Virus record (IMG/VR): IMGVR_UViG_3300032007_000018
Coordinates: 8,445 to 72,444 of that record
DNA from: a virus
DNA: 64,000 nucleotides
Strand: one strand, 5' to 3'
The position numbers and the translations under genes are program-made. Under the pieces are notes generated by a model. The model was not told where the DNA came from. It did no database searches and saw nothing but the letters and a program-made list of their open reading frames with translations. This document shows positions 1 to 64,000 of the stretch, in pieces; the stretch's first letter is position 1; the number at the start of each line of letters is the position of its first letter.

Positions 1-1424
1 AAGAAGAATATAAGAATCCTCGTAATTTTGCAGCGGGTAGTATTCGTCTATTAGACGCAAGCGAGTGCGCCAAAAGAAAATTAACCTTCGTAGTTTGGGA
101 AGTAATTGAAGGATTTGAAGAAATTGATTCTCTACAAGAGCGTTTGGCTAAAATAGAGAAACTAGGTTTCTTTACAGTCCCATGCTTAAAAACTGCGATG
201 ATTACTGATGATGTAGTCGAAACTATTAAAACTTTAAGCCAAAATATTCCAATAGATGGAGTTGTTTTTAAGTTTGATAGTGTCTCTTTTGGCAAAACTC
301 TTGGAGAAACTGCCCACCATCTTAAAAACGCTATTGCCTATAAATTCTATGATGAAGTTTATTCAACTACTTTACGCAGTATCGCATGGACAATGGGTAG
401 AACTGGAGTTCTTACTCCAGTAGCATTATTTGATCCTGTAGATATTGATGGTACAGAAGTTGAACGAGCTAGTCTTCATAATTTAAGTATTCTTGAAGAA
501 ACTCTAGGTAAAACTCCATGGAACGGTCAACTTATTGGCGTTTTTAAAGCAAATATGATTATTCCACAAATTGGATGGGCAGATTTAGATACTGTTCCAG
601 AAGAAAATAAGATAATTCCTATTTTAACGCATTGCCCAATTTGCGGCAGTCCGTTAAGAAAAAAACAAAATAATGATTCGGTCTTTTTAGAGTGTAGTAA
701 TGATGATTGCGATGGTAAGCTTATTAATCGCCTAGATCATTTCTGCGGAAAAAAGGGATTAGATATTAAAGGATTATCTAAGGCTACATTAGAAAAATTA
801 GTCGATTGGGGCTGGGTAAATAGCCCAGTGGATATTTTTTACCTGGGAGAGCATCAAAAAGATTGGTCTGGAAAACCAGGCTTTGGAGAGAAATCTGTTC
901 AAAATATTCTTGATGCTATTGAGGCAAGTAAAGAATGTAGTTTTGAATCGTTTATCTCCTCTCTTGGCATTCCTCTTATCGGAAGGAATGTAGCTAAAGA
1001 TTTAGCAGGACATTTTGGCTGTTATGACTGCTTATATGAAGCAATTAAAGAAAATTACGATTTTTCTCAACTTCCAGGCTTTGGAGAAAGTAAATCTCAA
1101 GCTTTATTAAATTTTGATTATACGGAAGCAGATCAATTATATGGAATTCTTGACGTGCAAATGTCCGAAATAACAACAAATGATGCAAAATTACCTTTAA
1201 AAGATATGAAATTTGTAATTACAGGAACTGTAAAGCATTTCAAGAACAGAGCTGAATTGCAAGAATGCATCGAGAAAAATGGCGGCAAAGTTGTATCTAC
1301 TATTTCTAAAAATGTTAATTATTTAATTAATAATGATGTAAATTCAACTTCATCTAAGAATGTCGCAGCAAAAAAGATGGGAATTCCAATCCTATCAGAA
1401 GACGAGTTTTTGGAGAAAATTTGA
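1..1424 (+). CDS. ligA: NAD-dependent DNA ligase (LigA), 5'-partial. The frame is open from the window start, the stop is TGA, and there are no in-frame TAGs. OB-fold (DGVVFKFD, AIAYKF), Zn-finger (CPICGS..C..C), HhH and C-terminal BRCT-like region are present.
   Basis: Frame-3 translation is open from nt 3. Motifs NPRNFAAGSIRLLD, DGVVFKFD and AYKF are typical of LigA; the Cys4 Zn finger is present. Confidence 0.85.
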   Translation, partial: EEYKNPRNFAAGSIRLLDASECAKRKLTFVVWEVIEGFEEIDSLQERLAKIEKLGFFTVPCLKTAMITDDVVETIKTLSQNIPIDGVVFKFDSVSFGKTLGETAHHLKNAIAYKFYDEVYSTTLRSIAWTMGRTGVLTPVALFDPVDIDGTEVERASLHNLSILEETLGKTPWNGQLIGVFKANMIIPQIGWADLDTVPEENKIIPILTHCPICGSPLRKKQNNDSVFLECSNDDCDGKLINRLDHFCGKKGLDIKGLSKATLEKLVDWGWVNSPVDIFYLGEHQKDWSGKPGFGEKSVQNILDAIEASKECSFESFISSLGIPLIGRNVAKDLAGHFGCYDCLYEAIKENYDFSQLPGFGESKSQALLNFDYTEADQLYGILDVQMSEITTNDAKLPLKDMKFVITGTVKHFKNRAELQECIEKNGGKVVSTISKNVNYLINNDVNSTSSKNVAAKKMGIPILSEDEFLEKI

Positions 1425-2035: not shown

Positions 2036-2050
2036 TTAAAGCATAAATTA

Positions 2051-2087
2051 TGCGGGGTGGGTTAATCGCCCACTCCGCATTTTTTAT
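2051..2087 (+). terminator. Rho-independent terminator (stem tgcggggtggg/cccactccgca followed by a T-run).
   Basis: Inverted repeat plus TTTTTTAT immediately after the TAA of CDS 1769..2035. Confidence 0.7.
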
Positions 2088-2088
2088 A

Positions 2089-3078
2089 ATGATTATCCTA
2101 TATGTACTTATCGGCCTACTTGTAGGAAGTCTTGGGATCTATTTACTACTTAGGCCGAAATTAAAAATTACTGCTCAAAAAAATATTGCTATAGAATAGG
2201 CAAATCAATAGCTTGAAATTCAAAATAGTAATTTGCTTGATGTTCAACAACATCGCAAAGAATTATTAGATAAAACAACTCAAGAATATCATGAAATGGG
2301 AGCCAAAAGAGAAGAAATCAAAAAGGCTCTTGAAGATTTGCGCGAAACATAGCAAAAAGCCGCTGAAGACTTATATAGTTAGGCTTTAAATATTGCCGAA
2401 AATTCATATGAAAAAGAAATTGACCGAATTAGTGATGACTTATTTCAACATCGCGAAGAAGCGAAAAATCTTTACCTTCAAGTCACTGAAGAGGCCGTCC
2501 AAGAGTTTGAAGAAGCTATTGAAGAAAAAGAAAAAGAATTTTCATATTGGAATGGACGAATTATTGCCTTACAAAAAGATGTATAGGTCGCTCTTGAAGC
2601 GGCTTAGCGCAAACTCGCCATGGAAACATAGCAAGACTATTATCGTGTATGTCTATCCGATGAAGATGTTACAGAGATAAAACGCTTGCGCGAAGTGCTT
2701 CCATATTTGCGCGACAAAACTCCATTGAATAAAGTTATTTATAAAGTTTATTATGAACGACCATTAACAGACATGATTGGCAGAGTGGTCGGAACTGGTG
2801 TTCATACTGGTATTTATAAAATTACTAACATTAATAACGGAATGTGTTATGTAGGCCAAGCCGCAAACATTGCAGATCGCTGGAAACAGCATTGTAAACG
2901 CGGTGTTGGCGCAGAAGACTGGACCCAGAATAAACTTTACCCAGCTATGTATTCTCTTGGAGTTGAAAATTTTACTTTTGAGATTGTTGAAGAATGCAGT
3001 AGAGATGCTCTCAATGAGAGAGAAGATTATTGGCAAGATTATTTTCACGCAAAAGATTTTGGATATAGTATAAAATGA
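2089..3078 (+). CDS. Membrane-anchored protein: N-terminal TM helix, coiled-coil region (DUF4041-like) and a C-terminal GIY-YIG/T5orf172-like nuclease domain. It contains 8 in-frame TAGs, translated here as Gln.
   Basis: Frame 1 is continuous from ATG 2089 to TGA 3078 if TAG is sense. N-terminus IILYVLIGLLVGSLGIYLLL; C-terminus GIYKITNINNGMCYVGQAANIADRWKQH...NEREDYW. Track ORF 2686..3078 is only the C-terminal fragment. Confidence 0.6.
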
Positions 3079-4594: not shown

Positions 4595-5521
4595 TTGATA
4601 AATATGATCAATGTTACAGAGGTTTCTATACAAGACTATTTTAATAAAAATGAAGAAGATAAGCAAAAATTTTATGATTTGATTTTAATAAATAATAATA
4701 AAGTTTCATCTAATACTCATTATAAAACGGTTATTTCGCCTGCGCCGCAAGCAAAAATCCCAGAAAAATTTTTTCATCAATTACAAGGCAAATTAAAATA
4801 TATTGCTCCACTACGAAAAAAGCATAAACAAAATGGTGGACTATCATTTTTAACCCTATGCGATTGTGGATAGTGGCATATTTTAGATGCGATAGATTTC
4901 AGAAAAGAAAAATAGACAATGTGTCCAACATGTAAATATAATAATATGACAACTATGAAGAATATTTCTGGATAGATTTTTGGATAGCTTTAGGCAATAC
5001 GCCCATCATCAAAACGTGGTTCTGATGGTTCTGTATATTGGATTTGTCAGTGTATAGATTGCGGTAATCAGTAGGAAGTAATTAAATATAATTTAACTAA
5101 AAAAGGTCATTTATGTGCTGTTTGCGGAGAAAAATCTAAAGGAGAATATAAAGTTGCTCAAATGCTTTAGGAAAATAATTTATGTTTTATAAGAGAAAAA
5201 ACATTTGAAGATTGTTTATTCCCAGATTCTTTCGCTCATGCAAAATTTGATTTTTTTGTAGATAATAAATATATTATTGAGATTGATGGATAGCATCATT
5301 TTTTTCCAGTGAAATATGGAAAAAATATAAGCGATCAAGATGCAAAATTATTATATAATAAAGTCCTTAATCACGATAGATACAAAAACCAATATTGTTT
5401 TTTGCATCAAATTCCTATTATTAGAATACCTTATTTAGCTATAGAAACTTTAAAGATAGAAGATTTAATGGTTGAAACAAGTAAATTTTTATTATATAAT
5501 ATAAGTATAAAAAATAATTAA
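4595..5521 (+). CDS. Putative freestanding homing endonuclease: repeated Zn-ribbon DNA-binding modules (YWICQCIDCGN) plus a C-terminal DUF559/Vsr-like PD-(D/E)xK nuclease domain. About 9 in-frame TAGs.
   Basis: Track ORFs 4595..4873 and 5309..5521 are in the same frame and the intervening frame is open except for TAGs. C-terminal FDFFVDNKYIIEIDGQHHF...IIRIPY. Paralog of CDS 15928..16809. Confidence 0.6.
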
Positions 5522-9733: not shown

Positions 9734-9958
9734 ATGCTTAGAAAAAGTGAAAAGTTTGGAACAAGTATTATGAAGCTCGGCTCTGAAACTGGTAGAGTCG
9801 GGTCCGTAGAGTATCAGATGCCGCAGAAGATGGCTGATATGCTCCTAAAAGAGCGTAAGGGCCAGGACAAGAATATGCGTCCGCAGGACTTTCTTGTGAA
9901 ATATGTTAATGACGAATGTCGTCTACTTTATAAGTGCGTGAAGGTGACCACTATCTAA
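9734..9958 (+). CDS. Hypothetical 74-aa protein.
   Basis: ORF track; RBS AAGGAGA. Confidence 0.5.
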   Translation: MLRKSEKFGTSIMKLGSETGRVGSVEYQMPQKMADMLLKERKGQDKNMRPQDFLVKYVNDECRLLYKCVKVTTI

Positions 9959-12099
9959 TGTTAGTCTTTGATAAACAAGAAATAAGAGACAGTTTATCAA
10001 TCGACGATATTTTTGACCTTCTAGAAGAGTGGGGCGGTGAGCCAGAACATTGTCCAACTGGCCTCATCGCCCGTACTATTTGTCATAACTTGCTAACAGA
10101 TGAAGCATCACGCAAATTATATTATTACGAGAACACTGGGCTATTTAGATGTTATACAGGGTGTGAAGATCCAGTCTTCGACATTTTCCAACTCTGTATA
10201 AAAGTAATGAATCTCCAGCATAATGTCGTATACGATTTAAATGATGCGGTCAGATGGGTGGCAAGAAGATTCGGTTTATCTGGCAGAGAAGAAGATAGCC
10301 CAGAAGAAGAAGGACTTGAGGATTGGAAAATTTTAGCAAACTATTCACGTATTTAGGATATACAAACTGCAGCTCCTCATGTCGTTCTCGAAGAATATGA
10401 TGATACAATTCTAACTCGATTTAATTATAATGTAAAGATAAAACCTTGGCTTGATGAAGGCATTTCTCAATAGGCGATTGAGCATGCCGAGATTGGCTTC
10501 TATCCAGGAGATGCACAAATCACTATTCCACATTTTGATAAGAATGGCAGATTTATCGGTCTGCGCGGACGCACAGTAGTTGCGGAAGATGCAGAAAAAT
10601 ATGGCAAGTATCGTCCCATAAAAGTCAATGGGCAAATGTATAATCATCCCCTTGGATTAAATCTTTATAATTTCAATAATAGTCGTTGTATTATTCCAAA
10701 GATGCGTAAAGCGATTGTTTTTGAGGGTGAACTATTCGCCCTAGTCTACTTTTCCCAGTTGCTACTGGGGGTCTGCGCGAAGGGAAAAATTCCCGTCAAT
10801 TTTTGGAAAGGCGCAGGCTAACGGGGAAGCCTAAAAATTTTATAAATTCATGGTAATCCCGTGGGAAAATCTGTTTAAACATCTAACTTCATTTTTCATA
10901 TATCAGTGAGAAAAGGAGTTGATTGTATGAACGTTATTTATGCTTATAAAAAGAAAAGTATAGATAAGATTGTTTATGTTGGTTAGACAAATAATTTAGA
11001 ATATAGACATAAACAACATATTTATTATGATCCATTTAATATTAATAATCCAGAGTATGAATATCCTCTTAGTAGAGGAATTCGTAAATATGGCGAAGAA
11101 GAATATTAGTTAATTGTTTTAGAAGAAAATATTCCAGATGATAAAATAAATGAACGAGAAATTTATTGGATAAAATATTATAATACATATTTTGATGGTT
11201 ATAATCAATCTACTGGTGGCACTAGCCCAGTAAAACCAATATATACAGATGATGAAGTGAATTAGGTAATTGAAATGTTAAAAGATGAAAGTTATTCATT
11301 TAATGATATTTCAAAGAAAACAGGATTTTCGTTAACTCATATTTATAATATAAATACTGGAAAAAGGCGCCCACAGCCAAATATACAATATCCAATTCGT
11401 TCAAATAAAACAAAAGGGACAAAAGGATTAAAATTTTCTCCGGAAGAGTGTAAAAAAATTCACGAAGAAATATTAAAAAATGATAAAACATTAAAAGAAC
11501 TTGGAGAAATGTTTAACTGTTCTTCTTCAACAATATCTGATATTATTAATGGAAAAACTTAGGCATATAAATTAGAAGGTTATTCTTATCCATTAAGAAA
11601 TAATCGTTCTATAGGGGCTAAATAGATGTGGAAAAACAGATAAACCTGTATCGACTATCCCGATAAAGGGAGTAGGAGTATTATTAGCACATACTCCGAA
11701 ATAGTAGCAGTTTTAAAAACTGGAAGATATAGTCAGTGCCGTTGGAAACAATGGAATAACACGGAAAAAAGTTGTTTGTTGTATCAAACATATTTTGGAT
11801 TTGAAAATGATATTTCTGTCGCTTGTTGCGGCAGTAGCTTATCTTCCTATCAGACGCAACTTCTTATTGATGCCGGGGCGCAAGAAATTATCGTCGCTTT
11901 TGATAGATAGTTTCAAAATGTTGGTGATGATGAATATTGCCATTTAGTAAATAATCTAAAAAAGATTCAAATGAAATATAAGAACTATGTAAATATCTCT
12001 TATATCCTCGATCGCAAGAAGATAACCGGATATAAGTGCAGTCCAATTGATTGCGGACGAGAAAAATTTTTGGTATTATATAAGGAGAGGGTTCAGTGA
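9958..12099 (+). CDS. dnaG: DnaG-like DNA primase split by an intron. Exon 1 is 9958..10728 (CHC2 Zn-finger CPTG..H..C..C and the start of TOPRIM ...AIVFEGE). Exon 2 is ~11764..12099 (KSCLLYQTYFGFENDISVACCGSS...LLIDAGAQEIIVAFDRQ). Both exons are in frame 1 and carry TAG=Gln codons.
   Basis: Zn-finger and TOPRIM motifs were read from the translation. The two exons join in frame across a 1035-nt insert (a multiple of 3). Confidence 0.55.
10729..11763 (+). mobile_element. Group-I-like self-splicing intron inserted in the primase TOPRIM region, carrying a GIY-YIG homing endonuclease ORF.
   Basis: R-like element ...ATCGACTATCC (~11652-11663) and S-like element AAGATATAGTCA (~11717-11728) can pair (GACUA/UAGUC) to form P7. 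The 5' splice site follows a T and the 3' splice site follows a G. Stop codons TAA lie in every frame between the exons. Confidence 0.5.
10927..11565 (+). CDS. GIY-YIG homing endonuclease (I-TevI-like) inside the intron, with 3 in-frame TAGs.
   Basis: NVIYAYKKKSIDKIVYVG(Q)TNNLEYRHKQH...YPLSRGIRKYGEEEY(Q)LIVLEE...EREIYWIKYYNTYFDGYNQS. TAG falls on the conserved Gln of YVGQT. Confidence 0.75.
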
Positions 12100-15927: not shown

Positions 15928-16809
15928 ATGATAGGTTCTGTTTTTGGAAGTTATCTTGTCTTAGAATAGGATAAAGTCTCACATCCATCTGCGGCCGCAC
16001 GCTACTGGAAGATTAAATGTATTTATTGTGGAGAGGAAAAGATTATCCGTTCTGATACATTAAAAAAATGCCCTATTTGTAAATGCCAAAAAGATAAGAT
16101 GATAGGGAATACTTTTGGAGATTTTTTAGTATTAGAAAAATCTAAAGAAAAAGCAAAAGATAATTGTTTAAAATATAAATGCAAATGCATTCATTGTGGC
16201 AATATTGAAGAAGTGGCAAGTAATGTATTAAGATCTCAACGTAAGCACTGTAGCAATTGTCATATTCGTGCATCAACATTAATTGATTTAACCGGTAAAA
16301 CATATGGATTTTTAAAAGTTTTATATAGAGATACTAATCCAATTTATATGGGACACGAAAATGATGCTTATTGGGTGTGCCAATGCTTAAAATGTGGTAG
16401 TATAAAAACAATCAGAGGTTATTCATTACGGAATGGATTAACACAGTCATGTGGCTGTATTAAAAGTTTTGGTGAAGAACAAATCGCCACAATATTAACA
16501 AATAATAATATTCTATTTTAGCGGGAATATATATTTAATGATTGTTATTTAACTAATAAAAAAAATAAATTACGATTTGATTTTGCTATTTTTAATACTG
16601 ATGGCACTCTATCTCATCTTGTTGAATACGATGGTAAACAACATTTTGAAGAAAATATACGAAATAGCGGCTGGAATACAAAAGATAATTATTAGCAAAC
16701 CCATTTACGAGACGAGTATAAAAATAATTATTGCCAATCTCATCATATTAAGTTAATTCGTATAAGATATAATGAAGAAATAACCTTATAGAAAATATTA
16801 GGAGAATGA
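15928..16809 (+). CDS. Putative freestanding homing endonuclease, paralogous to 4595..5521: three Zn-ribbon modules (YWKIKCIYCG, KCKCIHCGN, YWVCQCLKCGS) plus a DUF559/Vsr-like nuclease domain. 3 in-frame TAGs.
   Basis: ATG 15928 (RBS AAAGGAGG) is in-frame with track ORF 16099..16521 and continues past TAG to TGA 16809. C-terminal FDFAIFNTDGTLSHLVEYDGKQHF. Confidence 0.6.
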
Positions 16810-16814
16810 AAAAA

Positions 16815-18024
16815 ATGGAATTAAGTAGAAAACAAGAGGAGGGACTGCAAACTGTGTTAGCCAGATATAAAGCGGGTGAAAAATATACCGTAATATCTGG
16901 CTACGCTTAAAGCAGGAAGCGGAAAATCGACGTTAATAAAATTCATTATCGCTGCGATGAAGCTCTACCCAAACGAAGTAAGATATATCGCTTATACGGG
17001 TAAGGCCGCGAATGTATTAAAAAATAAGGGATGCGAAGGTGCTACTACCGCGCACAAACTCATTTATCACGCAAAGCTAATGCCCAATGGAAAATATATT
17101 TTTACTCCAAAAAAAATAACCGAAATGGAAAGAGAAATTAAGGTTGTAGTTGTAGACGAGGTTTCGATGTTGCCAAAATCTATGTGGGATTTACTATGTC
17201 AGTATAATTTCTACATCATAGCCTGCGGCGACCCGGAACAGCTACCTCCTGTACCAGATGGTAAGGAAGATCCAGACAATCACGTTTTGGATAATCCTCA
17301 CATCTTCCTTGACGAGATTATGCGTCAGGCCCAAGAGAGTGAGATTATTCGTCTCTCAATGCACATAAGAGAAGGTAAGCCTTTATTTACCTTTCCTGTG
17401 TAGAATGAGCAGGTTATGATTTTTGATAAGAAAGACGTAACAGATTCAATGCTACTCTGGGCTGATCAAGTATTGTGCGCGACCAATAGAAATAAGGTTG
17501 CTCTCAATCAGCGTATGCGGCAAGCCTATAACTTCCTACCCGAAACTCAAGTCGGAGACAAAATTATCAATGTTCATAATGAATGGGACATATGCTCAAA
17601 TCTTGAGAACCCATTAACTAATGGGGTAATTGGTAAGATATTACAAATGGAAATGCAAGAATGGGAATATCCTTATTGGTTGCGCAATGAAGTACTGCGT
17701 GTTCCTATCCTTGTCGCTACTATCTCCGGAGACGAAGAGGGTGAAGCATTTCAGATGCTGCCTTTTGACTATAATGAGATAGCAACAGGACAGCCGAGTT
17801 TGAGCGGCAAAGAAGAGTATACAATTATGAAGCGACTGGAAATGGCTGTTCCGCTTCATGCAAATTATGGTTATGCCATTACCGTATGGAAAGCGCAAGG
17901 TAGCGAGTGGGGTAAGGTTTTACTCTTCCAGGAACCTGGCTGGCCGAAGCAGCCAGACGATCGCCGCAGATATATGTATACCGGCATAACAAGAGCAGTA
18001 GATAAATTAGTGGTGGTGTCATAA
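16815..18024 (+). CDS. Dda/RecD-like SF1 DNA helicase. The N-terminal 31 aa are in frame 3 (ATG 16815) and the rest in frame 1 from ~16909 (Walker A AGSGKST), implying a +1 frameshift at GCT-TAA-A, or an assembly error. There is also a TAG at 17401.
   Basis: Motifs VVVDEVSM (II), GDPEQLPPV (III), ITVWKAQGSEWG and TGITRA (V/VI). Track ORFs 16957..17403 and 17416..18024 are in the same frame, separated by TAG. Confidence 0.55.
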
Positions 18025-18736: not shown

Positions 18737-21700
18737 ATGAAGTCATACTTCGGAGTTCATAATCATACAGCCGTGGGTTCAAATATTAGACTTATTGACT
18801 CAATCAACAAACCAGCAGACCTCATCGACAAAGCGATCGAGTTAGGACTCTCTGGGATTGCGATAACAGATCATGAATGTCTTTCGGCTCACGTAGAGGC
18901 TGAAAAGCATATGGCAGAAATAAAGGAAGCGCATCCAGATTTTAAACTGGCATTCGGCAATGAGATTTATCTTGTTGATGAAAGAAAACCAGGTCAAAAA
19001 TATTATCACTTTATTTTAATTGCCAAGGATGCACTAGGTCATCGCGCACTTCGAGAACTAAGTTCAAGGGCGTGGATGAATTCGTATGTGGACCGCCGTA
19101 TGGAGCGTGTTCCAACTACGAAAGAGGAGTTAAAAGAGATTGTAAATAAGTTCAAAGGTCATTTGATTGCAACAACCGCTTGTATTGGTGGAGAATTGCC
19201 AACTCTCGCATTGACTTATACAAAAGCAAGAATGGTAAATGATAACAACAATGCAATGTATTATTACAAAGAAATTGACAAGTTTTTGAACTATTGTTTG
19301 GAACTATTTGGAGAGGATTTTTACATTGAGTGCGCGCCGGGAACGGCCCCAGATCAGGTGGCGGCAAATAAAGCCTGTCGGAAAATTTCAGATTTTTATG
19401 GTATTAAAATGGTAGTCGGGACAGATGCGCACTACCTAGATAAAGACGCAAGGGCCGTTCATAAGGCTTACTTAAACTCCAAGGAAGGAGACCGCGAAGT
19501 CGATGCGTTTTATGAGTATACCTACCTTATGGATTACGATGAAGTTACGAATCTATTAGGTTTTACTTTTGATGGAGATATGGATTATGCATATCAAGTA
19601 GCGGATAACACTCTAGCAATACAAGAGAAGATACAAATGTATTCTCTCTTTCACAAACAAGATATCCCATCAGTAGAAGTACAGAATTATCCAAAGTCCG
19701 CGTGGTGGGGAGTAAATAACGACTACGCGAATGAAATGGAAAAGTACCCAACCTTAAAGAAACTATTCACATCTGACGATATTCAAGATAGATATTGGGT
19801 AAATCAATGTTGGGATAAACTCAACGAGATTGGCCATGGTTGGGATAATTATAATGAAACTGGCGATGATCGTTATCTCGTGGAGCTTGAAGAAGAGGCG
19901 CGAGTAAAGAGTGTCATTAGTGAAAAGTTAGAAACAAATATGTTCCGTTATCCAAATACACTTCAACACTATATTGATTTGATTTGGGATTGCGGTTCGA
20001 TGGTAGGTGCCGGACGAGGTTCATCTTGTGCGGCGTTAAACCATTATTTGATGGGTATAACGCAGTTAGACCCGATTGAATGGGAGCTTCCATTCTTCCG
20101 TTATTTGAACGACGAGCGTGTTGAATTAGGCGATATTGATATTGATATCTGTCCTTCCAAGTGCGGTCTCGTCTTACAGAAGATTGCGGCTGAGCGCAGT
20201 CAGATGTTTAATGATGATGTTCCGGAATGGGCGAAGAAGTTGTTTGGTTGTACGAGAATCTCAACTTTTGGAACTGAAGGAACAAAGTCGGCAGTTTTGA
20301 CAGCGTGCCGTGGTTATCGGTCTGAGGATTATCCCGATGGAATTGATGTTGATGAAGCGCAGTATATGGCATCATTGATTCCTCAAGAGCGTGGATTCTT
20401 GTGGCCGATTAAAGATGTTATCGAAGGAAATGAAGAGAAGAATCGTAAGCCAGTAGCAAGTTTCATTCGAGAAATCAATAATTATCCGGGACTTCTGGAT
20501 ATTGTTAAAGGTATTGAAGGCTTGGTAAGTAAGCGTAGTTCTCACGCATCAGGTATCGTTCTTTTCGATGGTGACCCATTCGAGCATAGCGCTTTTATGA
20601 AAACTCCAAAAGGAGAAATCATTACTCAATATAATCTGCACGATGCAGAGTATATGGGATTAACAAAATATGACTTCCTGGTAACAGAAGTTCAAGATAA
20701 AATCGTTCAAACAATCCAGTTCCTCCAGGAGGATGGAGAGATTGAAAAAGATTTAAGTCTGCGCGAAGTCTATAATAAGTATCTGCATCCAAGCGTATTG
20801 CCGATTAAAACAGATACAAAAATGTGGGATGCATTGGGCGATGTATCGGTTATCAATACATTCCAATTCGATAGCGCAGAGGGATCAAAGGCAGCAAAAC
20901 AATTAAAACCACGAACTATCTTAGAGATGGCCGATGCCAATGGTCTGATTCGTCTGATGGGCGAGGAAGGGCAGGAGCGCCCGATTGATAAGTATTATCG
21001 TTATAAAAATGATATTAGTTTGTGGTACGAAGAGATGGATAACTTTGGTTTGACAAAAGCAGAACAGAAAACTTTGGAGCCATATTTTAAACCATCTTAT
21101 GGTGTTCCACCTAGCCAAGAGCAGTTAATGAAGATGCTGATGGATCCAAACATCTGCGGATTCACCTTGGGAGAGGCGAACAACGCACGTAAAATCGTCG
21201 GTAAGAAGCAGATGAAAAAGATTCCAGCACTTCGTGAGCAGGTTCTCAAGCAGGCGAAGAGTCCGCGTCTCGGCCAGTATATTTGGAGATTTGGGGCTGG
21301 GCCGCAGATGGGTTATTCATTCTCTGTTATTCACGCACTCGCATATAGCTTCGTCGGGGCGCAAACATTGTATCTCGGCACTCATTGGAATCCAATCTAT
21401 TGGGATACGGCATGTCTGGTGGTTAATAGTGGTTCTCTTGAGGACGCGGTTGATGAAGACGGTGAAGCGCTCTATGATGAAGAGATAGAGGAAGAAGCTA
21501 CCGATGATAAGAAAAAGAAAGCAACAAGTACTGACTATGGTAAAGTCGCAAAAGCATTGAATGATATTATCAATGCCGGTATTAACGTCAGTCTTGTGAA
21601 TATAAACGGTTCTGACTTTGGTTTTAAGCCAGACGTAAAGAACAATCGAATCCTCTTTGGTATGAAAGCATTACTGAATGTAAATGATGATTTGGTAAAA

Positions 21701-22747
21701 CGAATCATTGATAATCGTCCATATAGAGGAATTAAAGATTTTTATAAAAGAATCAAGCCAACTAAGCAAGCAATGGTCTCTCTTATAAAGGCTGGCGCCT
21801 TTGATGATATGATGGAGAGAAAAATTGCGATGGCATGGTATATCTGGGAAACTTGCGATAAAAAATCAAGATTGACTTTGCAGAATTTCCCAACGTTAGT
21901 AAAACAAGATATGGTTCCGAAGGATACGCCAGAAAGAGAGGCCGCGTATTCAATATATGAATTTAATCGGTATCTTAAAGCCATATGTAAAACTAAAGAG
22001 TATCCTAATGATTATCGCCTTGATCCTCGCGCAATTGAATTTCTTTATAAGATGGGATTTGAAAATCTGATAGTAGATGATAATCTTTTGGATATGAAGA
22101 AATGGGATAAGAAGTACCAAGGATTCATGGACGTATTCAGAGAGTGGCTGCGCGCAGACGGCGATGAGATTCTAAATGAACTTAATACGAGAATTTTCAA
22201 AGCCGACTGGGACAAGTATGCAGGCGACGCAAATTATTCTGCATGGGAAATGGAAGTTCTTTGTTTCTATAAGCATGAACACGAACTCGCGCATGTTGAT
22301 ATGAAGAAATATGGTTTGAGTAATTTCAGCGAGTTGCCAGAAGATCCAGAAGTAGAGAGAACATTCTACAAGGCAAATAAAGCAATCAATATATTCAAAC
22401 TGAGCCGTATTGCAGGAACCTGTATAGCAAAAAATAAAGTAAAGAGCGTAGTTACAATTCTAACAACTGATGGCGTTGTTAATGTCAAGTTCAGAAAAGA
22501 ATATTTCGCATTGTTCGATAAGAGAATTTCTGAGCGTGGCGAAGATGGTGTAAAGCACGTCGTTGAAAAGAGTTGGTTTGATAGGGGAAGTATGATTATG
22601 GTACAGGGTATCCGGTCTGGTGATACATTCATCACAAAGAAGTATGCATCAACAGTTGGGCATCAATTGTATCATATTATTGAAGTAACTCCAAGTGGAG
22701 ATTTGATTCTTCAGAACGAAAGATATAAAGGGGAGGGTGGAGAATGA
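18737..22747 (+). CDS. dnaE: DNA polymerase III alpha subunit (DnaE-type, N-terminal PHP domain), 1336 aa, with no in-frame TAG.
   Basis: N-terminal PHP motifs (HNHT...ITDHE) and length. An uninterrupted 4-kb ORF with RBS AAGCGGAGG. Confidence 0.75.
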   Translation: MKSYFGVHNHTAVGSNIRLIDSINKPADLIDKAIELGLSGIAITDHECLSAHVEAEKHMAEIKEAHPDFKLAFGNEIYLVDERKPGQKYYHFILIAKDALGHRALRELSSRAWMNSYVDRRMERVPTTKEELKEIVNKFKGHLIATTACIGGELPTLALTYTKARMVNDNNNAMYYYKEIDKFLNYCLELFGEDFYIECAPGTAPDQVAANKACRKISDFYGIKMVVGTDAHYLDKDARAVHKAYLNSKEGDREVDAFYEYTYLMDYDEVTNLLGFTFDGDMDYAYQVADNTLAIQEKIQMYSLFHKQDIPSVEVQNYPKSAWWGVNNDYANEMEKYPTLKKLFTSDDIQDRYWVNQCWDKLNEIGHGWDNYNETGDDRYLVELEEEARVKSVISEKLETNMFRYPNTLQHYIDLIWDCGSMVGAGRGSSCAALNHYLMGITQLDPIEWELPFFRYLNDERVELGDIDIDICPSKCGLVLQKIAAERSQMFNDDVPEWAKKLFGCTRISTFGTEGTKSAVLTACRGYRSEDYPDGIDVDEAQYMASLIPQERGFLWPIKDVIEGNEEKNRKPVASFIREINNYPGLLDIVKGIEGLVSKRSSHASGIVLFDGDPFEHSAFMKTPKGEIITQYNLHDAEYMGLTKYDFLVTEVQDKIVQTIQFLQEDGEIEKDLSLREVYNKYLHPSVLPIKTDTKMWDALGDVSVINTFQFDSAEGSKAAKQLKPRTILEMADANGLIRLMGEEGQERPIDKYYRYKNDISLWYEEMDNFGLTKAEQKTLEPYFKPSYGVPPSQEQLMKMLMDPNICGFTLGEANNARKIVGKKQMKKIPALREQVLKQAKSPRLGQYIWRFGAGPQMGYSFSVIHALAYSFVGAQTLYLGTHWNPIYWDTACLVVNSGSLEDAVDEDGEALYDEEIEEEATDDKKKKATSTDYGKVAKALNDIINAGINVSLVNINGSDFGFKPDVKNNRILFGMKALLNVNDDLVKRIIDNRPYRGIKDFYKRIKPTKQAMVSLIKAGAFDDMMERKIAMAWYIWETCDKKSRLTLQNFPTLVKQDMVPKDTPEREAAYSIYEFNRYLKAICKTKEYPNDYRLDPRAIEFLYKMGFENLIVDDNLLDMKKWDKKYQGFMDVFREWLRADGDEILNELNTRIFKADWDKYAGDANYSAWEMEVLCFYKHEHELAHVDMKKYGLSNFSELPEDPEVERTFYKANKAINIFKLSRIAGTCIAKNKVKSVVTILTTDGVVNVKFRKEYFALFDKRISERGEDGVKHVVEKSWFDRGSMIMVQGIRSGDTFITKKYASTVGHQLYHIIEVTPSGDLILQNERYKGEGGE

Positions 22748-49814: not shown

Positions 49815-49946
49815 ATTGTCTCTCCTTTCTTTAGATTATCCATTATAATATAAAAAGCAATATAAATAAATTACCCCAATCTGGCCTACTAAAAAAAACC
49901 AGATTGGGGTAAAATATTAAAGCAATGATTTACGATATTCTAATTC

Positions 49947-52871
49947 GCTCAACTCGTCTTTTGCAGTTGCTAAAGTATCTCGTGCTAAATTGATTAAGCC
50001 AGTAAAATTATTAGTTAATCTATTAATAGGAGACTAAGCTCCAATCATCTAATAAAGACGTAAAAGAAGCCCATTAATTGAGTTTCTACCATTATTAAAT
50101 CCAGTAATTTCTAATGCTGAATATTCATCCATCTCTATTCCAAGAATAATAGGCCATGGAATAGTATCGGTTGGTGTCTAGAAAGTCCACGGATAACCAA
50201 CACTATGCTAATTTAATAAATCCTGAAATACAACACAAGATCTTTTTACTGCATACTATCCATTTTCGCGCATACTAAAACTTCTATCTATTGTATAGAT
50301 ATCATTTTCATCTAATCTCCAATAGTAACAGTTCATCAAATAAAAATAAGGTACAATAGTAGAAGATATAATAGTATAATAGTCTGTAATGGGAGAAAAA
50401 TCATTTGCAGTCGCAATGCTTAAAGTAGTTTGACTTCTATAAAAATAATATTTATTATCAATAAAAAGGCTGTCCATAATGCTAGTTAATACAACATCCT
50501 AGAAGCGTTGAGCACTATCAAAAAATGATGCTGGCTATTTAGATAGCCATTCTTCAGTTACAAGATAGTAATTATTATCATTCTGATCATAAAAATAATA
50601 ATCCGTTTCTAATGTCCCAGGAGTAAATGAAACTGGAATTTTCTATTTAATATAATAACCAATTACATAAGTGCCTTCACTGGTCAGAACTGGTGTTAAT
50701 GTTTGTTCCAATTCTAAATAATAATATGTCTTAGAAAAATCTGGGATTAAACGAGTTTCTTTCTTTAAATCTAAAGGTGGATTAACAATTCCTTCATCTG
50801 CATAATAATAGTAAATATTAGGCTTATAAATATAACCGGCACCACCAGGACCAGGGAAATCATGAGTTTCACTAATCGTATAATAAGTTTTAGTAAGATC
50901 GGCAGACTCATCCGAAGAAAGAATAATATTTCCATTAGAGTCTAAAACATAATATGTGTCAGGAGTATAAGCATAATCAAAATTCATCGGTTCACTTAAA
51001 GCTAAATCTAAATAATGAGTTTCTTGGTCTGGCGTTATTGCTATTTCAAGTTGATAATCTGTGCCAACTCTTTTCCAATATCTATTAGGTTCATAATTTG
51101 CTAACTAAATAGGAATATATCCCGTTTCGGATAGGTCTTGATACTTTCTATAATAAGTTGCAGTGCTATCAAACTCGTTACTCCTATCATATGCAAGAAA
51201 TACATTTCCATCTATGGTAACATCCGCGTCACGCTAATTATTAACCACTTTATAATATACTAGTGGTCTCCACGTTTCAACATCTAGTGTGATAGGCTCA
51301 TAGTAAATATCAAATGGCGAAGTATAATTTAATATTCCTTTATAAAAATACTTATCTAATAATTCATAATAATATATTTTATCATAATCCCAATAAACTT
51401 CAATTTCCTATGCACTTGGAAGAGAATTATCTTCAGTATTAACAACAATAATTTGACCTAAACGATCATGTAAAGTATTTATTGTACCGGCTAAAGTGGA
51501 TAAATCACGAGTTTTTCCACCAAGACTATAATCTCCATTTTCAATATAATGTTGTTGCAATGGAGAATACCATTTAACATCCAATGCTCGTTTATGTTCT
51601 CCTGACTCCGCACCAGTGCCATATAGCATATCATAAACATCTGAAATAGCATTTCCAATAGCAGGTAAACTAATTGATAATTCTTGCATATCAGCACTAG
51701 CAACTTCATCTTGTATAAACTAAGAATCTTTATAGCGATTTTCAAAATTAGAACTTTTACCTGTTGGTGCAACTTTAATTTCATTAGGAGTAGATTCATC
51801 ATATGTTCTAATTGTTTTGTCAAATCCATCTTTATTATAGTAAATTGCACCATCTACTTCTTCTTCTTCTGTTTCATAATCTCCCAAAGAATAAAAGAAT
51901 GTTTTTTGTTTTATTTTTTCATCCGAGGGTTCTCCTTCTTCAGCACTTTTTATTCTAAAGCCCCAAGGAGATTGCATATGCATTTTATAAAATCCATCTA
52001 AACTATCGGCGCCCTAGAATGGAGCTACAGGCTCATCGGTTGGAGGTTCTGCAACAACTGCAATTCCAGGAGTTACAGGATTTAAATGAGCTATTAATAC
52101 ATAACGCTCATTTCCTTCACCAACAACCTTTTCCCAAACAGTGCTATCGTATCCACGATAAAGAATACCCCACGTATCATCGATGTCTTTATAATGCTTT
52201 AAATCAAATGTATATCTCTTAAAATAATTATCTAATACACTTTCATTATCTTCATCAGCTTGCGAACTATATAAAAATAATGGTCTAAATTTAGCCACAT
52301 CAGGATTAGATTCACTATCTGGACCAATACATATATAGAAATCATCGGTGTAAGCTAATGGTTCTGGATTATTAATATCGCTATTATTTGTTATACCATT
52401 ACATCTGCGATGAACTATTTCGCCTTGAGTAATACCGCTCGTTGAAGCAAGGACATGATCACTAGTCATTTTGTAGTATGATTCATGTTCAACAAAAGAA
52501 CCAACCTTATAATAAAAACCATTTTTTTGAATATAGTATTTATTTATATCTTCTGCCATAGGTTCTGCTACTAATTCATAATTAGTATAAACAAAAGGTT
52601 TAGTACACTACGCATCAGCATAGAGAATTAAATCATCATATGTAGTTGGAGATATGGTTTGATCTTGGCTATCAGAGTAAGCTACACGATAATCGCTACT
52701 AATAACACCAATGCTATTCAAATCTTCGTCATATCCATAACTAACTAAAACAAAACGACCTGGGGCAATTCCGTCTCTCTACATTCCATCTTCCATAGCA
52801 TATCGAGAGGTATAGATTTTATCAAACTAAAAAGTAGTATGAGTAGTATTTGTTCTATTACCATAAAACAT
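49947..52871 (-). CDS. Large virion structural protein (~974 aa), TAG-dense (>=10).
   Basis: Track ORFs 50256..50477, 50643..50987, 51408..51689, 51720..51983 and 52014..52559 are all in the same frame. The gaps I checked are open apart from TAG. ATG 52871 has RBS GGGGGAGGGA; stop is TGA at ~49947. Confidence 0.45.
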
Positions 52872-53224
52872 CAGTTATCTCCCTCCCCCTCATATACCAT
52901 ATCAACTATTATCCAGGCACTAGGATTATTTATAATATAATTCAAAGAAGTTTTATTAAATGATAGCCGTGCTATTCCACTTCCATCTGTAAAATCTAAT
53001 TCAAATAATCCCGTGTAATTTATAATGGCTTCTGTGTCAGAATCGTTAATATTAAAACGAGTTCCAGGAGGCGCTGAAATACCAAGTTTTATAATAGGAG
53101 CATATTTATCGAATAATGTTCCATCGCCCCATGCTGCAATTACATCATTAGCCAAACTAAATCTTGGCTCATTATTCATCGCTGATAAATTATAAAAACG
53201 AAATTGCTTAAATTTTTGCGCCAT
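52871..53224 (-). CDS. Hypothetical 117-aa protein.
   Basis: ORF track; RBS AAAGGAGGAA; TGATG overlap with the downstream gene. Confidence 0.55.
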   Translation of the reverse strand: MAQKFKQFRFYNLSAMNNEPRFSLANDVIAAWGDGTLFDKYAPIIKLGISAPPGTRFNINDSDTEAIINYTGLFELDFTDGSGIARLSFNKTSLNYIINNPSAWIIVDMVYEGEGDN

Positions 53225-53244
53225 AATGATTCCTCCTTTTTCTC

Positions 53245-58983: not shown

Positions 58984-59193
58984 AATCAAAAACTCCTTTT
59001 TTTCCATTTTTATATATAAAATACTCAAGCGAATCGAGCATATATACCATATTGATTCTATGCGGAAACATTAACCGTAAGAATTCCACTATTGTAATCT
59101 ATAACACGCGTTGCATTGTTTGGATTAGAATGTCTATCGCCGACTGGAGCGACAGGTCCTAGTTGAAAGCGTTCACAATATACCATAAACTAA

Positions 59194-62100: not shown

Positions 62101-64000
62101 CCAGCAGAGAAGTCTTGAGAAGTGGTATTAGATGTATAATATAATACATTACCAATATTTCTTCCATCCTCAAAATAATAGTTAGTATGTGCATCGTTAA
62201 AATAATTATTCGCGCTATGCGGATAAGCTACATTTGACTAATCTAACGTAGAAGACTATCCCGTTTGAATTTTTAATGCACTTTGATCATTGAAAAATAT
62301 CGGATATAACAAATCTTCAGTCTCTACTGTATATTCAGTAGCGGCTTCTTTGTTTGTCTTCATTTCAGCGACAAGCCAATCGAAATCAATAGATACTTTG
62401 CTAGCTTCATTAAGACGATTAAAAGCATCAGTTTCTTTCGCCGTTTTAATTGTCGCTCCAATAGTTGTAGAAGCATTATACTGATTTGGATTCTATAATC
62501 CAGAGGAAGAGTAAAAATCCCAATATGTATCATCTAATACTGCAGAATATTTTTCACGAAGAATTAAACCAAGACTGCGCTTATGTGCAATATTAGTTGG
62601 ATCGTTATCATTTGGAATATTCTTATATGCTTCAATATTAGAATCTACAGATGTTAATAAATCGATTTCTTTTCCATTCTATCCGTATAAATGGACTTGC
62701 GCAATTAATGCATAGTATGAATTTATATCTCCTAAATCCATAGCTCTACCTTCTACGCTTTGATAAAATCTGTTTCTATATCCCTGTAAAGTGCTGGCCT
62801 GTTCGCCATATACTGATAACGCATTTTGATTATTATCAAAAGTAACACTTACAGTATAAGAAGAACCAGACGTACCAGATTGACCAAAAAGAAGATCTTT
62901 TGTTACATGATAAGTAATCTTATCTTTTACAATCTGGCAATGAACTGTATTGTCAACTAGATTAGGCGCATAGGTTTTTCTAATAAAATAATGTGCTGTA
63001 ATTAAATCAAACTGATCTGATAAATCACCACTAACGATATCACCAAAGTGAGTTAATTCAATAAGTTTGGTTGCAGTATTAAATGTCGCTAGTAATTTTC
63101 TATCTTCGGTCTGAGCAATAACCAATCTATTTTCAATAGTGCCAAAAGCACGCTTCAATAGCTCTACTTCGTCAGCTGTAGGATCTCGCAAAGTAGCTTT
63201 TTCTAATTCAATAAAAGTATCTAAATAAAACACTGGACGAAGCATTGTATTTGAACTTGGAAACATCCAAGTAATACAAGTTGCCTCATTCAACAGGTTA
63301 TCTTCTGGATTAGTTTTACTATCTTTCATAGAGCGGAATGTAGCTGTTAAACTAAATCTTTCTTTAGCTCTATGTTCATCAACTAATTCATTTCCTTTTT
63401 TATAAATAAAGAACATTCCTTGCTCTGGCTCTAAATAGAATATATCATTCTCTTGACGATGACCACAAAGAATACCCAGCGCTTCAGAAATATCTGTTGT
63501 AGTAGTACTTGGTATGTCGTAAAGATTTGTGAAAACAAGCTAGTTAGTACGAGCAATTTCAGAATCGTTTTTTATAATTACAACCTAAAATTTTTCCTAT
63601 TCTTTATTTATATCTGGATAAAAACTTAACTAAAAAGGATCATCAACATCTTTCAACATATTCTGCAATGTTGGCAATGTTTCTTTGATGTATCCTTGGT
63701 ATAATTCAACAGTATCAAAATTAACTACTATGTTCTAATATAACTCAATAATTGAATTACAAAAATTATAGTTAGAAGCTAATTCATCAGCGCAATTTTG
63801 ATACCAACCAATTTTCTCCTTATTGTCGATAATATAATTATAAGCTGCATTATAAGCAGTTAAATAAGTGCTATCAACATCGACAGGGTTATTAATAGTA
63901 AAATTAGTAATATTGGTTGAAACATTTATAATAGTAGATAAATTCTATAAGTCTTCTGGCATAGTTAGATGCTGCTAAGTAATATCTTGTCTACTCTAAA
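59194..64000 (-). CDS. Giant virion structural protein, 5'-partial (it continues beyond the window end), >=1565 aa, beta-helix-like (NLTVTGTLTGGIIDGGYITGGEIHGSYIEG), TAG-dense.
   Basis: Track ORFs 59304..59885, 60621..60881 and 62679..63416 are in the same frame. I translated 59886-60240 and 63417-63660 and found them open apart from TAG. The frame is still open at 64000. The 3' end is uncertain: TAG at 59304 or TGA at ~59194. Confidence 0.4.

What the first reader, a model, noticed from the sequence alone, without database searches (positions are those of the whole stretch)
9958..12099. DnaG-type primase split by a ~1035-nt group-I-like intron carrying a GIY-YIG homing endonuclease
The N-terminal Zn-finger/TOPRIM half (ending ...AIVFEGE) and the C-terminal TOPRIM half (KSCLLYQTYFGFEND...LIDAGAQEIIVAFD) are both in frame 1. 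They are separated by a region with stops in all frames that contains an I-TevI-like endonuclease. Group I R-like (TCGACTATCC) and S-like (AAGATATAGTCA) elements can pair to form P7. A U-ending 5' exon and a G-ending intron give an in-frame junction, GGT|GAA, reconstituting EGE-KSC.
Basis: partly seen in the sequence, partly recalled or inferred. Interest (0 to 1): 0.7.

Follow-up and report, generated by a model that had tools for sequence, protein, structure and literature searches.

The report
Mobile group I intron splitting phage primase
The primase gene of an uncultured phage that reads the TAG stop codon as glutamine is interrupted by a 1035-base self-splicing-type (group I) intron carrying its own homing endonuclease gene; this is a real but ordinary kind of selfish element, found here at a gene site our limited literature search did not find reported.

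Summary
Exon 1 (9958-10728) plus exon 2 (11764-12099) give a 368-aa primase. It is colinear, without a gap, with more than 100 uninterrupted 366-370-aa homologues, and the junction FEG|EKS is invariant. The 1035 nt between them (10729-11763) form a T4-td-like group I intron. In 8 orthologous introns 98.4% of base-pair cells pair, and 26 of 46 pairs show compensatory changes. The 5' exon ends in a U.G wobble pair and the intron ends in G. ORF-less 236- and 240-nt versions sit at the identical site in other phages. A 238-aa GIY-YIG endonuclease (10927-11643) lies in the P6 loop.

Rfam's group I model does not reach threshold, but it also fails on the proven T4 td intron.

Two hairpins lie between P3 and J3/4, and one of them kisses the P7.2 loop. 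A homologous intron plus endonuclease sits, unannotated, at the same primase site in Enterococcus phages EF1/EF5. Relatives of this phage carry the same intron class in NrdD, DnaB and RecJ.

Verdict: real, and a new member of a known kind. Moderate-low interest.

The parts
9958..10728 (+). Primase exon 1 (257 codons). It contains the invariant Cys/His positions C42, H43, C65, C69 and the first half of the TOPRIM region, and ends ...AIVFEG. In-frame TAG (=Gln) at 10354 and 10471.
   Evidence: phrog_47 DNA primase at 5e-30, one matched stretch spanning the junction.
10723..10742 (+). P1. Exon AGGGU (10724-10728) pairs with the internal guide GCCCU (10738-10742). A U.G wobble sits at the 5' splice site (10728/10729). 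UUC (10735-10737) can pair with the first bases of exon 2 (GAA, 11764-11766) as P10.
   Evidence: helix 1: 97.5% of cells paired. In L214 the exon reads GAGAGU and the guide GCUCU, a compensatory G-C to A-U change. P10 is only 2-4 bp and is inferred.
10729..11763 (+). Group I intron, 1035 nt. First base G10729, last base G11763 (the terminal 'omega' G).
   Evidence: ORF-less orthologues of 236 and 240 nt at the same site (L211, L202).
10746..10750 (+). P3 5' strand, CUACU. It pairs with AGUAG at 11703-11707.
   Evidence: helix 2: 100% paired, 4 of 5 pairs with compensatory changes; 26 of 26 family members fully paired, 0 of 2000 shuffles as good.
10754..10769 (+). Hairpin after P3 (P3.1-like): CCCAGU-UGCU-ACUGGG. 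Its loop, UGCUA (10760-10764), pairs with UAGCA in the P7.2 loop (11685-11689), forming a loop-loop kiss.
   Evidence: helices 3 and 4; the kiss covaries (GCUA/UAGC, UACC/GGUA, UAUC/GAUA, GCCA/UGGC, ACUA/UAGU, GUCA/UGAC), 0 of 2000 shuffles as good.
10771..10818 (+). Second hairpin (P3.2-like): GUCUGCGC...GCGCAGGC. It closes immediately before J3/4.
   Evidence: outer 6 bp 99.4% paired in 26 members, with many pair types.
10819..10863 (+). J3/4 (UAA, 10819-10821) is also the first TAA that stops read-through from exon 1. P4 CGGGG (10822-10826) pairs with UCCCG (10857-10861). An A/U-rich P5 lies between them.
   Evidence: helix 5 (L123: CGGAG/UUCCG, compensatory). Near-identical to td CUAAACGGGGAAC...AAUCCCGUG. 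P5 was not tested for covariation.
10869..11641 (+). P6. AUCUGUUU (10869-10876) pairs with AAACAGAU (11634-11641) and encloses the endonuclease ORF in its loop. The last base of the 3' strand is the first base of the ORF's TAA stop codon.
   Evidence: the pairing spans 743-1009 nt in ORF-bearing members and covaries (AUCUAUUU/AAAUAGAU, AUUUGUUU/AAACAAAU, AUUAAUGU/ACAUUAAU...).
10927..11643 (+). Homing endonuclease gene: 238 aa plus a TAA stop, with 5 in-frame TAG (=Gln). It has an N-terminal GIY-YIG domain and C-terminal helix-turn-helix modules. A Shine-Dalgarno sequence AAAGGAG lies at 10912-10918.
   Evidence: TAG makes up 5 of its 9 Gln codons, the highest share in the window.
11653..11734 (+). 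3' catalytic core. P7 is GACUAU (11653-11658) with AUAGUC (11729-11734). P7.1 is CCC/GGG (11659-11670). P7.2 is GGAGUAU/AUACUCC (11675-11697). P3' is at 11703-11707. P8 is AGUUU/AAACU (11709-11721). J8/7 is GGAAGAU.
   Evidence: helices 6-8: P7 invariant, P7.1 2 of 3 and P7.2 7 of 7 pairs compensatory. Sequence nearly identical to T4 td and to the Rfam consensus. P8 was not counted.
11739..11763 (+). P9 hairpin CCGUUG-GAAA-CAAUGG (11739-11754), followed by a 9-nt tail that ends in the terminal G at 11763.
   Evidence: helix 9: 100% paired, 5 of 6 pairs compensatory.
11764..12099 (+). Primase exon 2 (111 codons plus TGA): EKSCLLYQ...AFDRQ... In-frame TAG at 11908.

Best explanation
The region is one primase gene interrupted by a mobile group I intron.

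Splicing (inferred). The gene is transcribed as a single pre-mRNA. The intron (10729-11763) folds into a T4-td-like ribozyme core made of P1, P3-P9, P7.1 and P7.2. Free guanosine attacks after U10728, which sits in the P1 U.G wobble pair. The freed exon then attacks after the terminal G11763. The ligated sequence ...GAGGGU|GAAAAA... restores the invariant TOPRIM motif FEG-EKS and a 368-aa primase.

Mobility (inferred). The P6 loop carries a separately translated GIY-YIG endonuclease with its own Shine-Dalgarno sequence and ATG at 10927. This enzyme presumably cuts intron-less primase alleles of co-infecting relatives, so that the intron is copied in by repair (homing).

Recoding. Both genes can be read only where TAG is decoded as Gln. 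The endonuclease is the most TAG-rich gene of the replication module, so it is probably made only once TAG suppression is active.

Shown here: gene colinearity, exact boundaries, RNA structure supported by covariation, the protein domains, and presence/absence polymorphism of the intron. Inferred: catalysis, homing and timing.
For: Colinearity:
- The spliced product is colinear with more than 100 uninterrupted homologues, and E256, E258, K259 and S260 are invariant.
- An intron-less relative has the same gene order and an uninterrupted 368-aa primase.

RNA structure:
- In 8 orthologous introns 98.4% of pair cells are standard pairs, against 36-43% when partners are slid by 1-3 columns. 26 of 46 pairs carry compensatory changes, and 0 of 500 shuffles reach the observed values.
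- The same holds for 26 family members. P6 pairs across the ORF.
- P1 shows an exon/guide compensatory change in L214.
- The core sequence is nearly identical to the proven T4 td intron.
- The core motif GACTATCCC..GGGAGTAGG occurs in at least 120 viral contigs. Several of the tested contigs that carry the motif get RF00028 hits of 60-92 bits, some of them at the motif position.
- The ORF-less orthologue L211 scores 36.5 bits with RF00028, E = 5e-8.

Mobility:
- ORF-less (236 and 240 nt) and ORF-bearing (964-1072 nt) forms occupy the identical site.
- Among cultured phages EF1/EF5 have the intron and the related VRE9 phages lack it.
- The same intron class occurs in NrdD, DnaB and RecJ of related phages.
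- The endonuclease has a GIY-YIG domain homologous to the I-TevI catalytic domain.
Against: - No RNA or biochemical evidence of splicing or DNA cleavage exists.
- Rfam RF00028 gives no hit on the window, even at E <= 10.
- The ORF-less orthologue and the td control both stay below the gathering score of 50 bits.
- The helix order differs from td: there is no P2 between P1 and P3, and two hairpins lie between P3 and J3/4.
- P10 is only 2-4 bp.
- P7 is invariant, so it carries no covariation evidence.
- The primase itself has 3 TAG codons, so a clean 'early primase, late endonuclease' timing is not evident.
Confidence: 0.92

Rival explanations
1. The primase is a genuinely split gene. Two polypeptides would be made, separated by a free-standing homing endonuclease, and no RNA splicing would occur.
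For: Split phage genes with endonuclease genes between the halves are known from the literature (own knowledge). Exon 1 read through would end at TAA 10819, giving a 287-aa protein.
Against: - The break falls inside the invariant FEG-EKS TOPRIM motif.
- Exon 2 has no start codon or ribosome-binding site at the junction; the first candidate start is TTG at 11776.
- ORF-less 236- and 240-nt inserts at the same site carry no gene.
- The insert shows ribozyme-type covariation.
- All 120 best homologues are single proteins.
Confidence: 0.03
2. The intron is a decayed, splicing-dead relic, so this phage's primase is a pseudogene.
For: Splicing was not shown. Rfam gives no hit on the window.
Against: - Every core helix is intact in the window copy, with 5/5, 7/7 and similar full pairing.
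- The endonuclease ORF is intact under code 15.
- Contig L121, 88% identical in DNA, keeps both the structure and the ORF.
- The P1-forming exon bases UUUGAGGGU are retained, whereas intron-less alleles differ at synonymous sites.
Confidence: 0.04
3. The arrangement is an assembly chimera or other artefact that joined unrelated sequence into the primase gene.
For: The window comes from an uncultured source.
Against: The same primase-intron-endonuclease arrangement occurs in at least 5 independent viral contigs and in two GenBank Enterococcus phage genomes.
Confidence: 0.01

Closest known systems
T4 td intron with I-TevI (subgroup IA2 group I intron with a GIY-YIG endonuclease in the P6 loop)
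   Same: - J3/4-P4, P4', J6/7-P7, P7.1, the AGUAGG box, GAAA, J8/7 and P7' are nearly identical in sequence.
- The ORF lies in the P6 loop.
- The endonuclease N-terminal domain is homologous to I-TevI (32% identity).
- The host gene functions in DNA metabolism, and the insertion is at a conserved catalytic motif.
   Different: - The host gene is primase, not thymidylate synthase.
- There is no P2 between P1 and P3; instead two hairpins lie between P3 and J3/4, and the first kisses the P7.2 loop.
- There is no P9.1/P9.2 extension, only a 9-nt tail.
- The endonuclease C-terminus has helix-turn-helix modules, and no I-TevI-type zinc finger was detected.
- The ORF is TAG-recoded.
Unannotated intron in the primase of Enterococcus phages EF1/EF5 (GenBank MF001358, MF001361)
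   Same: - Same insertion site (KAIVFEG|EKS) and same intron architecture.
- Homologous endonuclease, 44% identical at the protein level.
   Different: - The host primase is only about 35% identical to the window's primase.
- In the part of the endonuclease gene that was read, Gln is written CAA, as at YIGQT, where the window has TAG.
- The GenBank records annotate the pieces as three hypothetical proteins.
Recoded group I intron endonuclease in Agate phages (Borges et al., bioRxiv 10.1101/2021.08.26.457843)
   Same: An alternatively coded gut phage carries a group I intron endonuclease inside an early or replication gene, and that endonuclease is enriched in the reassigned stop codon. The authors propose that the in-frame stops delay endonuclease production.
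   Different: That case uses TGA->Trp, whereas this one uses TAG->Gln. Here the host gene is also partly recoded, with 3 TAG codons.
Rfam Intron_gpI (RF00028)
   Same: The P4-P6, P7, J8/7 and P9 regions of the ORF-less orthologue align to the model.
   Different: The score is 36.5 bits, below the 50-bit gathering score. P3 is not matched, because its 5' strand lies upstream of two extra hairpins. The window copy gets no hit at all.

Membership tests
Group I intron | P1 helix between the 5' exon end and an internal guide sequence, with a U.G wobble pair at the 5' splice site | tested here: met
   AGGGU (10724-10728) pairs with GCCCU (10738-10742), and U10728 pairs with G10738. This is conserved in 8 orthologues, with one compensatory change in L214.
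Group I intron | Terminal guanosine at the 3' end of the intron | tested here: met
   G11763. All 8 orthologues end in G immediately before exon 2, which starts GAA or GAG.
Group I intron | Conserved core helices P3-P9 with the P3/P7 pseudoknot, supported by covariation | tested here: met
   98.4% paired, 26 of 46 pairs compensatory, and slid controls at 36-43%. Searches agree. P7 is invariant, and P5 and P8 were not counted.
Group I intron | Reaches the curated score of the Rfam covariance model RF00028 | tested here: not met
   No hit on the window. The ORF-less orthologue scores 36.5 bits against a gathering score of 50. In a control, the proven T4 td intron scores only 40.3 bits, so this criterion also rejects a true member.
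Group I intron | Guanosine-dependent self-splicing | not testable with these tools
   Needs in-vitro transcription and splicing, or RNA-seq.
Subgroup IA2 (T4 td-like) | P7.1 and P7.2 inserted between P7 and P3' | tested here: met
   P7.1 lies at 11659-11670 and P7.2 at 11675-11697. Both covary (helices 7 and 8).
Subgroup IA2 (T4 td-like) | Peripheral layout as in td, with P2 between P1 and P3 and the P3 5' strand adjacent to J3/4 | tested here: not met
   The P3 5' strand (10746-10750) follows P1 directly. Two hairpins (10754-10818) separate it from J3/4. For td. That this layout defines IA2 is my own reading, not a checked definition.
GIY-YIG homing endonuclease (I-TevI-like) | GIY-YIG catalytic domain | tested here: met
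   Pfam PF01541 at 25.8 bits (cutoff 22.6), residues 3-93. The I-TevI catalytic-domain structures 1mk0/1ln0 match at E = 8e-5, with YVG, R, E(R) and GYN aligned.
GIY-YIG homing endonuclease (I-TevI-like) | I-TevI-type DNA-binding region (zinc finger, minor-groove helix, helix-turn-helix) | tested here: inconclusive
   Only helix-turn-helix-type hits were found (HTH_3 at 180-212, and HTH_26 below cutoff at 116-146). BLASTP against I-TevI aligns the N-terminal domain only.
GIY-YIG homing endonuclease (I-TevI-like) | Site-specific cleavage of the intron-less allele, and homing | not testable with these tools
   The only support is indirect: presence/absence polymorphism among close relatives.
DnaG-type (TOPRIM) primase | TOPRIM catalytic domain | tested here: inconclusive
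   Pfam Toprim and Toprim_2 hit 15-17 of the 17 sequences, but below cutoff (best E = 0.001-0.008). A profile search matches DnaG catalytic cores 5guj and 4e2k at E = 0.002 and 0.012, aligning FEGeks with FEGfad. Foldseek on a medium-quality model (pLDDT 65) matches Twinkle and T7 gp4 primase at E = 1e-6 to 1e-4.
DnaG-type (TOPRIM) primase | N-terminal CHC2 zinc finger | tested here: inconclusive
   C42, H43, C65 and C69 are invariant in 17-23 homologues, but there is no Pfam zf-CHC2 hit.

The most novel reading that the evidence does not exclude
There are two linked possibilities that the evidence does not exclude.

(a) This intron family may be a structural variant of IA introns that has not been catalogued. 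Its features are the P3 5' strand directly after P1, two hairpins between P3 and J3/4, and a covarying kissing interaction between the first hairpin loop and the P7.2 loop. Standard Rfam annotation does not detect it, yet it is widespread in large phages of Gram-positive hosts.

(b) Stop-codon recoding may couple splicing to homing. Before TAG suppression begins, ribosomes on the endonuclease ORF would stop at codon 20 and leave the P6 3' strand free, even though that strand overlaps the end of the ORF. Once TAG is read as Gln, the endonuclease is made and ribosomes run into P6.
Probability: 0.2. Interest if true: 0.55.

Novelty: new member of a known kind. Interest (0 to 1): 0.35.

Why it matters
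- Annotation: gene callers will report this primase as two fragments plus broken ORFs unless both the intron and the TAG->Gln code are recognised. The GenBank records of Enterococcus phages EF1/EF5 show that outcome, with the region annotated as three hypothetical proteins.
- Detection: a whole family of td-like introns falls below Rfam's curated threshold. At least 71 viral contigs share its P4 motif.
- Biology: this is a second example, now for TAG recoding, of a homing endonuclease that is unusually rich in the reassigned stop codon inside a replication gene.
- Overall: none of this overturns current understanding. Group I introns with GIY-YIG endonucleases in phage DNA-metabolism genes are textbook.

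Tried and rejected
- Rfam on the whole window at gathering threshold gave no hit, and so did the intron region at E <= 10. Controls then showed the model is insensitive for this class.
- My first guess for P3 was GCUACUG in the first hairpin pairing with UAGUAGC. I rejected it because it is not conserved in L123 or L125. CUACU/AGUAG covaries instead.
- A 26-sequence MAFFT alignment (A2) was too misaligned in P3 and the hairpins for pair counting. I replaced it with an anchored parse and an 8-sequence orthologue alignment (A4). In five sequences the P3 3' strand had to be re-registered with one fixed rule (GAAA, then 1 nt, then 5 nt).
I used the 94%-identical homologue P0003 instead. The model was only of medium quality.
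- The literature search for a described primase group I intron found none. None of the 20 listed papers has it as its subject, and two intron papers (the 2014 review and the 2025 Bastillevirinae survey) never mention primase. The library is incomplete.
- I considered an intein, a group II intron and translational bypass. I rejected them because the primase frame contains real TAA stops, no such domains were found, and the RNA structure is of group I type.
- A regex scan found no second intron of this class in the window.
Full report
**1. The observation**

- Frame 1 opens at ATG 9958, which overlaps the TAA of a 74-aa upstream ORF. It reads through ...KAIVFEG, with GGT ending at 10728.
- The same frame resumes at 11764 with EKSCLLYQTYFGFEND...AFDRQ and stops at TGA 12097-12099.
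- TCGACTATCC is at 11651-11660 and AAGATATAGTCA at 11724-11735.

- The primase frame has in-frame TAG at 10354, 10471 and 11908. The endonuclease ORF has five.
- With TAG = Gln, long ORFs appear across the window. One is a 1645-aa ORF with 27 TAG codons.
- None of the 25 tabulated genes ends in TAG.
- Homologues have Gln at the TAG positions.
- An intron-less relative also carries in-frame TAG in its primase.
- Real TAA stops still close the primase frame inside the insert, the first at 10819.

**2. One gene, not two**

- The spliced 368-aa product finds 4466 database proteins. The best 120 are 65-94% identical, and almost all are 366-370 aa with 100% coverage. They come from contigs of up to 196 kb.
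- In an alignment of 17 sequences there is no gap at the junction, and E256, E258, K259 and S260 are invariant.
- PHROGs matches 'DNA primase' (phrog_47, 5e-30) in a single stretch across the junction.
- A close relative (L224, 91% aa identity) has the same gene order: AAA_24/Sak4-like, YorH-like, DnaB, a 74-aa ORF, primase, RecJ-like. Its primase is uninterrupted.

The primase belongs to the TOPRIM/DnaG superfamily only at a weak level.
- Pfam Toprim and Toprim_2 hits lie below cutoff in all members.
- A profile search matches the DnaG catalytic cores 5guj and 4e2k at E = 0.002 and 0.012. It aligns FEGeks with DnaG's FEGfad, the catalytic-glutamate motif.
- Foldseek, run on a medium-quality model, matches Twinkle and T7 gp4 primase.

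The intron therefore sits in the TOPRIM active-site motif.

**3. The insert is a group I intron**

Comparative data come from several sources.
- Viral contigs L121/L122 (88-89% nt identity), L123 (73%) and L124/L125 (69%) carry the same primase-intron-endonuclease arrangement. So does L214.
- L202 and L211 carry ORF-less introns of 240 and 236 nt at exactly the same site.
- The cultured Enterococcus phages EF1/EF5 carry a homologous intron and endonuclease at KAIVFEG|EKS. It is annotated there as three hypothetical proteins.

Orthologues whose introns begin AAAAG or AAGAG remove the GAA ambiguity. They fix the junction as GGU|GAA, with a U-ending exon and a G-ending intron.

On the 8-orthologue alignment, my proposed structure gave these results:
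- 98.4% of cells form standard pairs, against 36-43% when partners are slid by 1-3 columns.
- 26 of 46 pairs have changes on both sides.
- The covariation score is 0.518, against 0.226 for shuffles (0 of 500 reach it) and 0.04-0.08 for slid controls.

An anchored parse of 26 distinct family members agrees for P3, both extra hairpins, P7.1, P7.2 and P9, with 0 of 2000 shuffles as good in each case.

P6 pairs bases that lie 743-1009 nt apart in ORF-bearing members, and it covaries. P1 has a compensatory exon/guide change in L214: GAGAGU with GCUCU, where that primase has Ser instead of Gly.

The core sequence is nearly identical to the proven T4 td intron fetched as a reference.

**4. The Rfam result**

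- RF00028 does not hit the window or nine ORF-less relatives at the gathering threshold.
- On a short stretch of L211 it scores 36.5 bits, E = 5e-8. It aligns P4-P6, P7, J8/7 and P9 but not P3.
- The T4 td intron itself reaches only 40.3 bits.
- Other viral introns carrying the same GACUAUCCC..GGGAGUAGG core score 60-92 bits.

The negative result therefore reflects the model, not the RNA.

**5. Anatomy in window coordinates**

| Element | Sequence | Coordinates |
|---|---|---|
| P1 | AGGGU / GCCCU | 10724-10728 / 10738-10742 |
| P10 (weak) | UUC / GAA | 10735-10737 / 11764-11766 |
| P3 | CUACU / AGUAG | 10746-10750 / 11703-11707 |
| Hairpin 1 | CCCAGU-UGCU-ACUGGG | 10754-10769 |
| Hairpin 2 | GUCUGCGC...GCGCAGGC | 10771-10818 |
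| J3/4 | UAA | 10819-10821 |
| P4 | CGGGG / UCCCG | 10822-10826 / 10857-10861 |
| P6 | AUCUGUUU / AAACAGAU | 10869-10876 / 11634-11641 |
| P7 | GACUAU / AUAGUC | 11653-11658 / 11729-11734 |
| P7.1 | CCC / GGG | 11659-11670 |
| P7.2 | GGAGUAU / AUACUCC | 11675-11697 |
| P8 | AGUUU / AAACU | 11709-11721 |
| P9 | CCGUUG-GAAA-CAAUGG | 11739-11754 |
| Terminal G | G | 11763 |

Two points differ from td.
- The P3 5' strand follows P1 directly, and two hairpins lie between it and J3/4. 'P3.1' is a named optional pairing in the group I literature, so this layout may already be catalogued.
- The loop of hairpin 1 pairs with the P7.2 loop, with six covarying variants.

**6. The endonuclease**

- The ORF 10927-11643 has a Shine-Dalgarno sequence AAAGGAG at 10912-10918, 8 nt upstream of the ATG.
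- Its product has a GIY-YIG domain (Pfam, above cutoff) and helix-turn-helix modules. It matches phrog_7168 'homing endonuclease' at 1.8e-32.
- The N-terminal domain is 32% identical to I-TevI. It matches the I-TevI catalytic-domain structures with the catalytic residues aligned.
- The protein is 44% identical to the EF1 endonuclease.
- Five of its nine Gln codons are TAG, the highest share in the window. For comparison: DnaB 0 of 17, the Pol III-like polymerase 0 of 39, primase 3 of 17.
- Its TAA stop overlaps the last base of the P6 3' strand.

**7. Mobility**

- The distribution is sporadic. Most family members lack the intron, and among cultured phages EF1/EF5 have it while the related VRE9 phages do not.
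- The same intron class interrupts NrdD at aa 234/235, DnaB at about aa 321 and RecJ at about aa 433 in related phages.
- Seven of the eight intron-bearing primase alleles keep UU[U/C]GAGGGU upstream of the splice site. L214 has UUUGAGAGU together with the compensating guide change.
- The intron-less allele reads UUCGAAGGG at the same codons. This fits selection for P1, or co-conversion during homing.

**8. What is known and how novel this is**

- Group I introns with GIY-YIG endonucleases in phage DNA-metabolism genes are classical (T4 td; review PMC3984707).
- A recoded intron endonuclease inside an early gene has been described for TGA-recoded Agate phages (bioRxiv 10.1101/2021.08.26.457843).
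- I found no paper describing a primase insertion site. The library is incomplete, however, and the element already sits unannotated in GenBank.

I rate it a new member of a known kind, of moderate-low interest.

Splicing, cleavage and timing are inferred, not shown.

Noticed in passing
whole window, e.g. 59025-63962 (-), 49917-58782 (-): The phage uses TAG as a sense codon (Gln). Long ORFs appear only when TAG is read through: 27 TAG in a 1645-aa ORF, and 11-16 in three ORFs of 857-986 aa. None of the 25 tabulated genes ends in TAG. DnaB, the Pol III-like polymerase (18737-22747), the ligase and the methyltransferase have none. ARAGORN finds no tRNA gene in the window.
   Followed up: partly
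2050-3078, 4595-5521, 15928-16809 (+): Three further endonuclease-like ORFs are all TAG-dense. One has a C-terminal GIY-YIG domain (7 TAG). Two are phrog_559 HNH/VSR-like 'homing endonucleases' (8 and 4 TAG). In this window, homing-type nucleases are the most strongly recoded genes of the replication module.
   Followed up: partly
16807-16960 (+): The Dda-like helicase appears frame-shifted. MKKMELSRKQEEGLQTVLARYKAGEKYTVISGYA stops at TAA (about 16909). The Walker A motif (KAGSGKSTL...) continues in the +1 frame across GCT TAA A. This could be a programmed +1 frameshift, a sequencing error or a pseudogene. The called ORF 16957-18024 matches only the C-terminal half of phrog_325.
   Followed up: no
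L143, L144, L172, L179, L205 (NrdD); L150, L173, L187, L201 (DnaB); L178 (RecJ): Related phages with the same replication-gene order carry introns of this same structural class in NrdD (aa 234/235), DnaB (about aa 321; L173 also about aa 206) and RecJ (about aa 433). Some have endonuclease ORFs and some do not.
   Followed up: partly
L223 = GenBank MF001358.1 139406-141527 (Enterococcus phage EF1); also MF001361.1 (EF5): A cultured phage has a homologous intron and GIY-YIG endonuclease at the identical primase site. The record annotates the two exons and the endonuclease as three 'hypothetical proteins'.
   Followed up: yes
10760-10764 with 11685-11689: The loop of the hairpin after P3 pairs with the P7.2 loop, with six covarying variants across the family. 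I could not find whether this tertiary contact has been described.
   Followed up: partly
10717-10728 compared with L224 3760-3771: Intron-bearing primase alleles keep UUUGAGGGU before the splice site. The intron-less allele of a 91%-identical primase reads UUCGAAGGG, with synonymous differences at exactly the P1-forming bases, including the U at the splice site.
   Followed up: partly
144-1424 (+): The NAD-dependent DNA ligase ORF matches only positions 234-652 of the 656-position profile. An in-frame stop lies within the 143 nt upstream. The N-terminal adenylation domain is therefore either beyond the window edge after another interruption, or missing.
   Followed up: no
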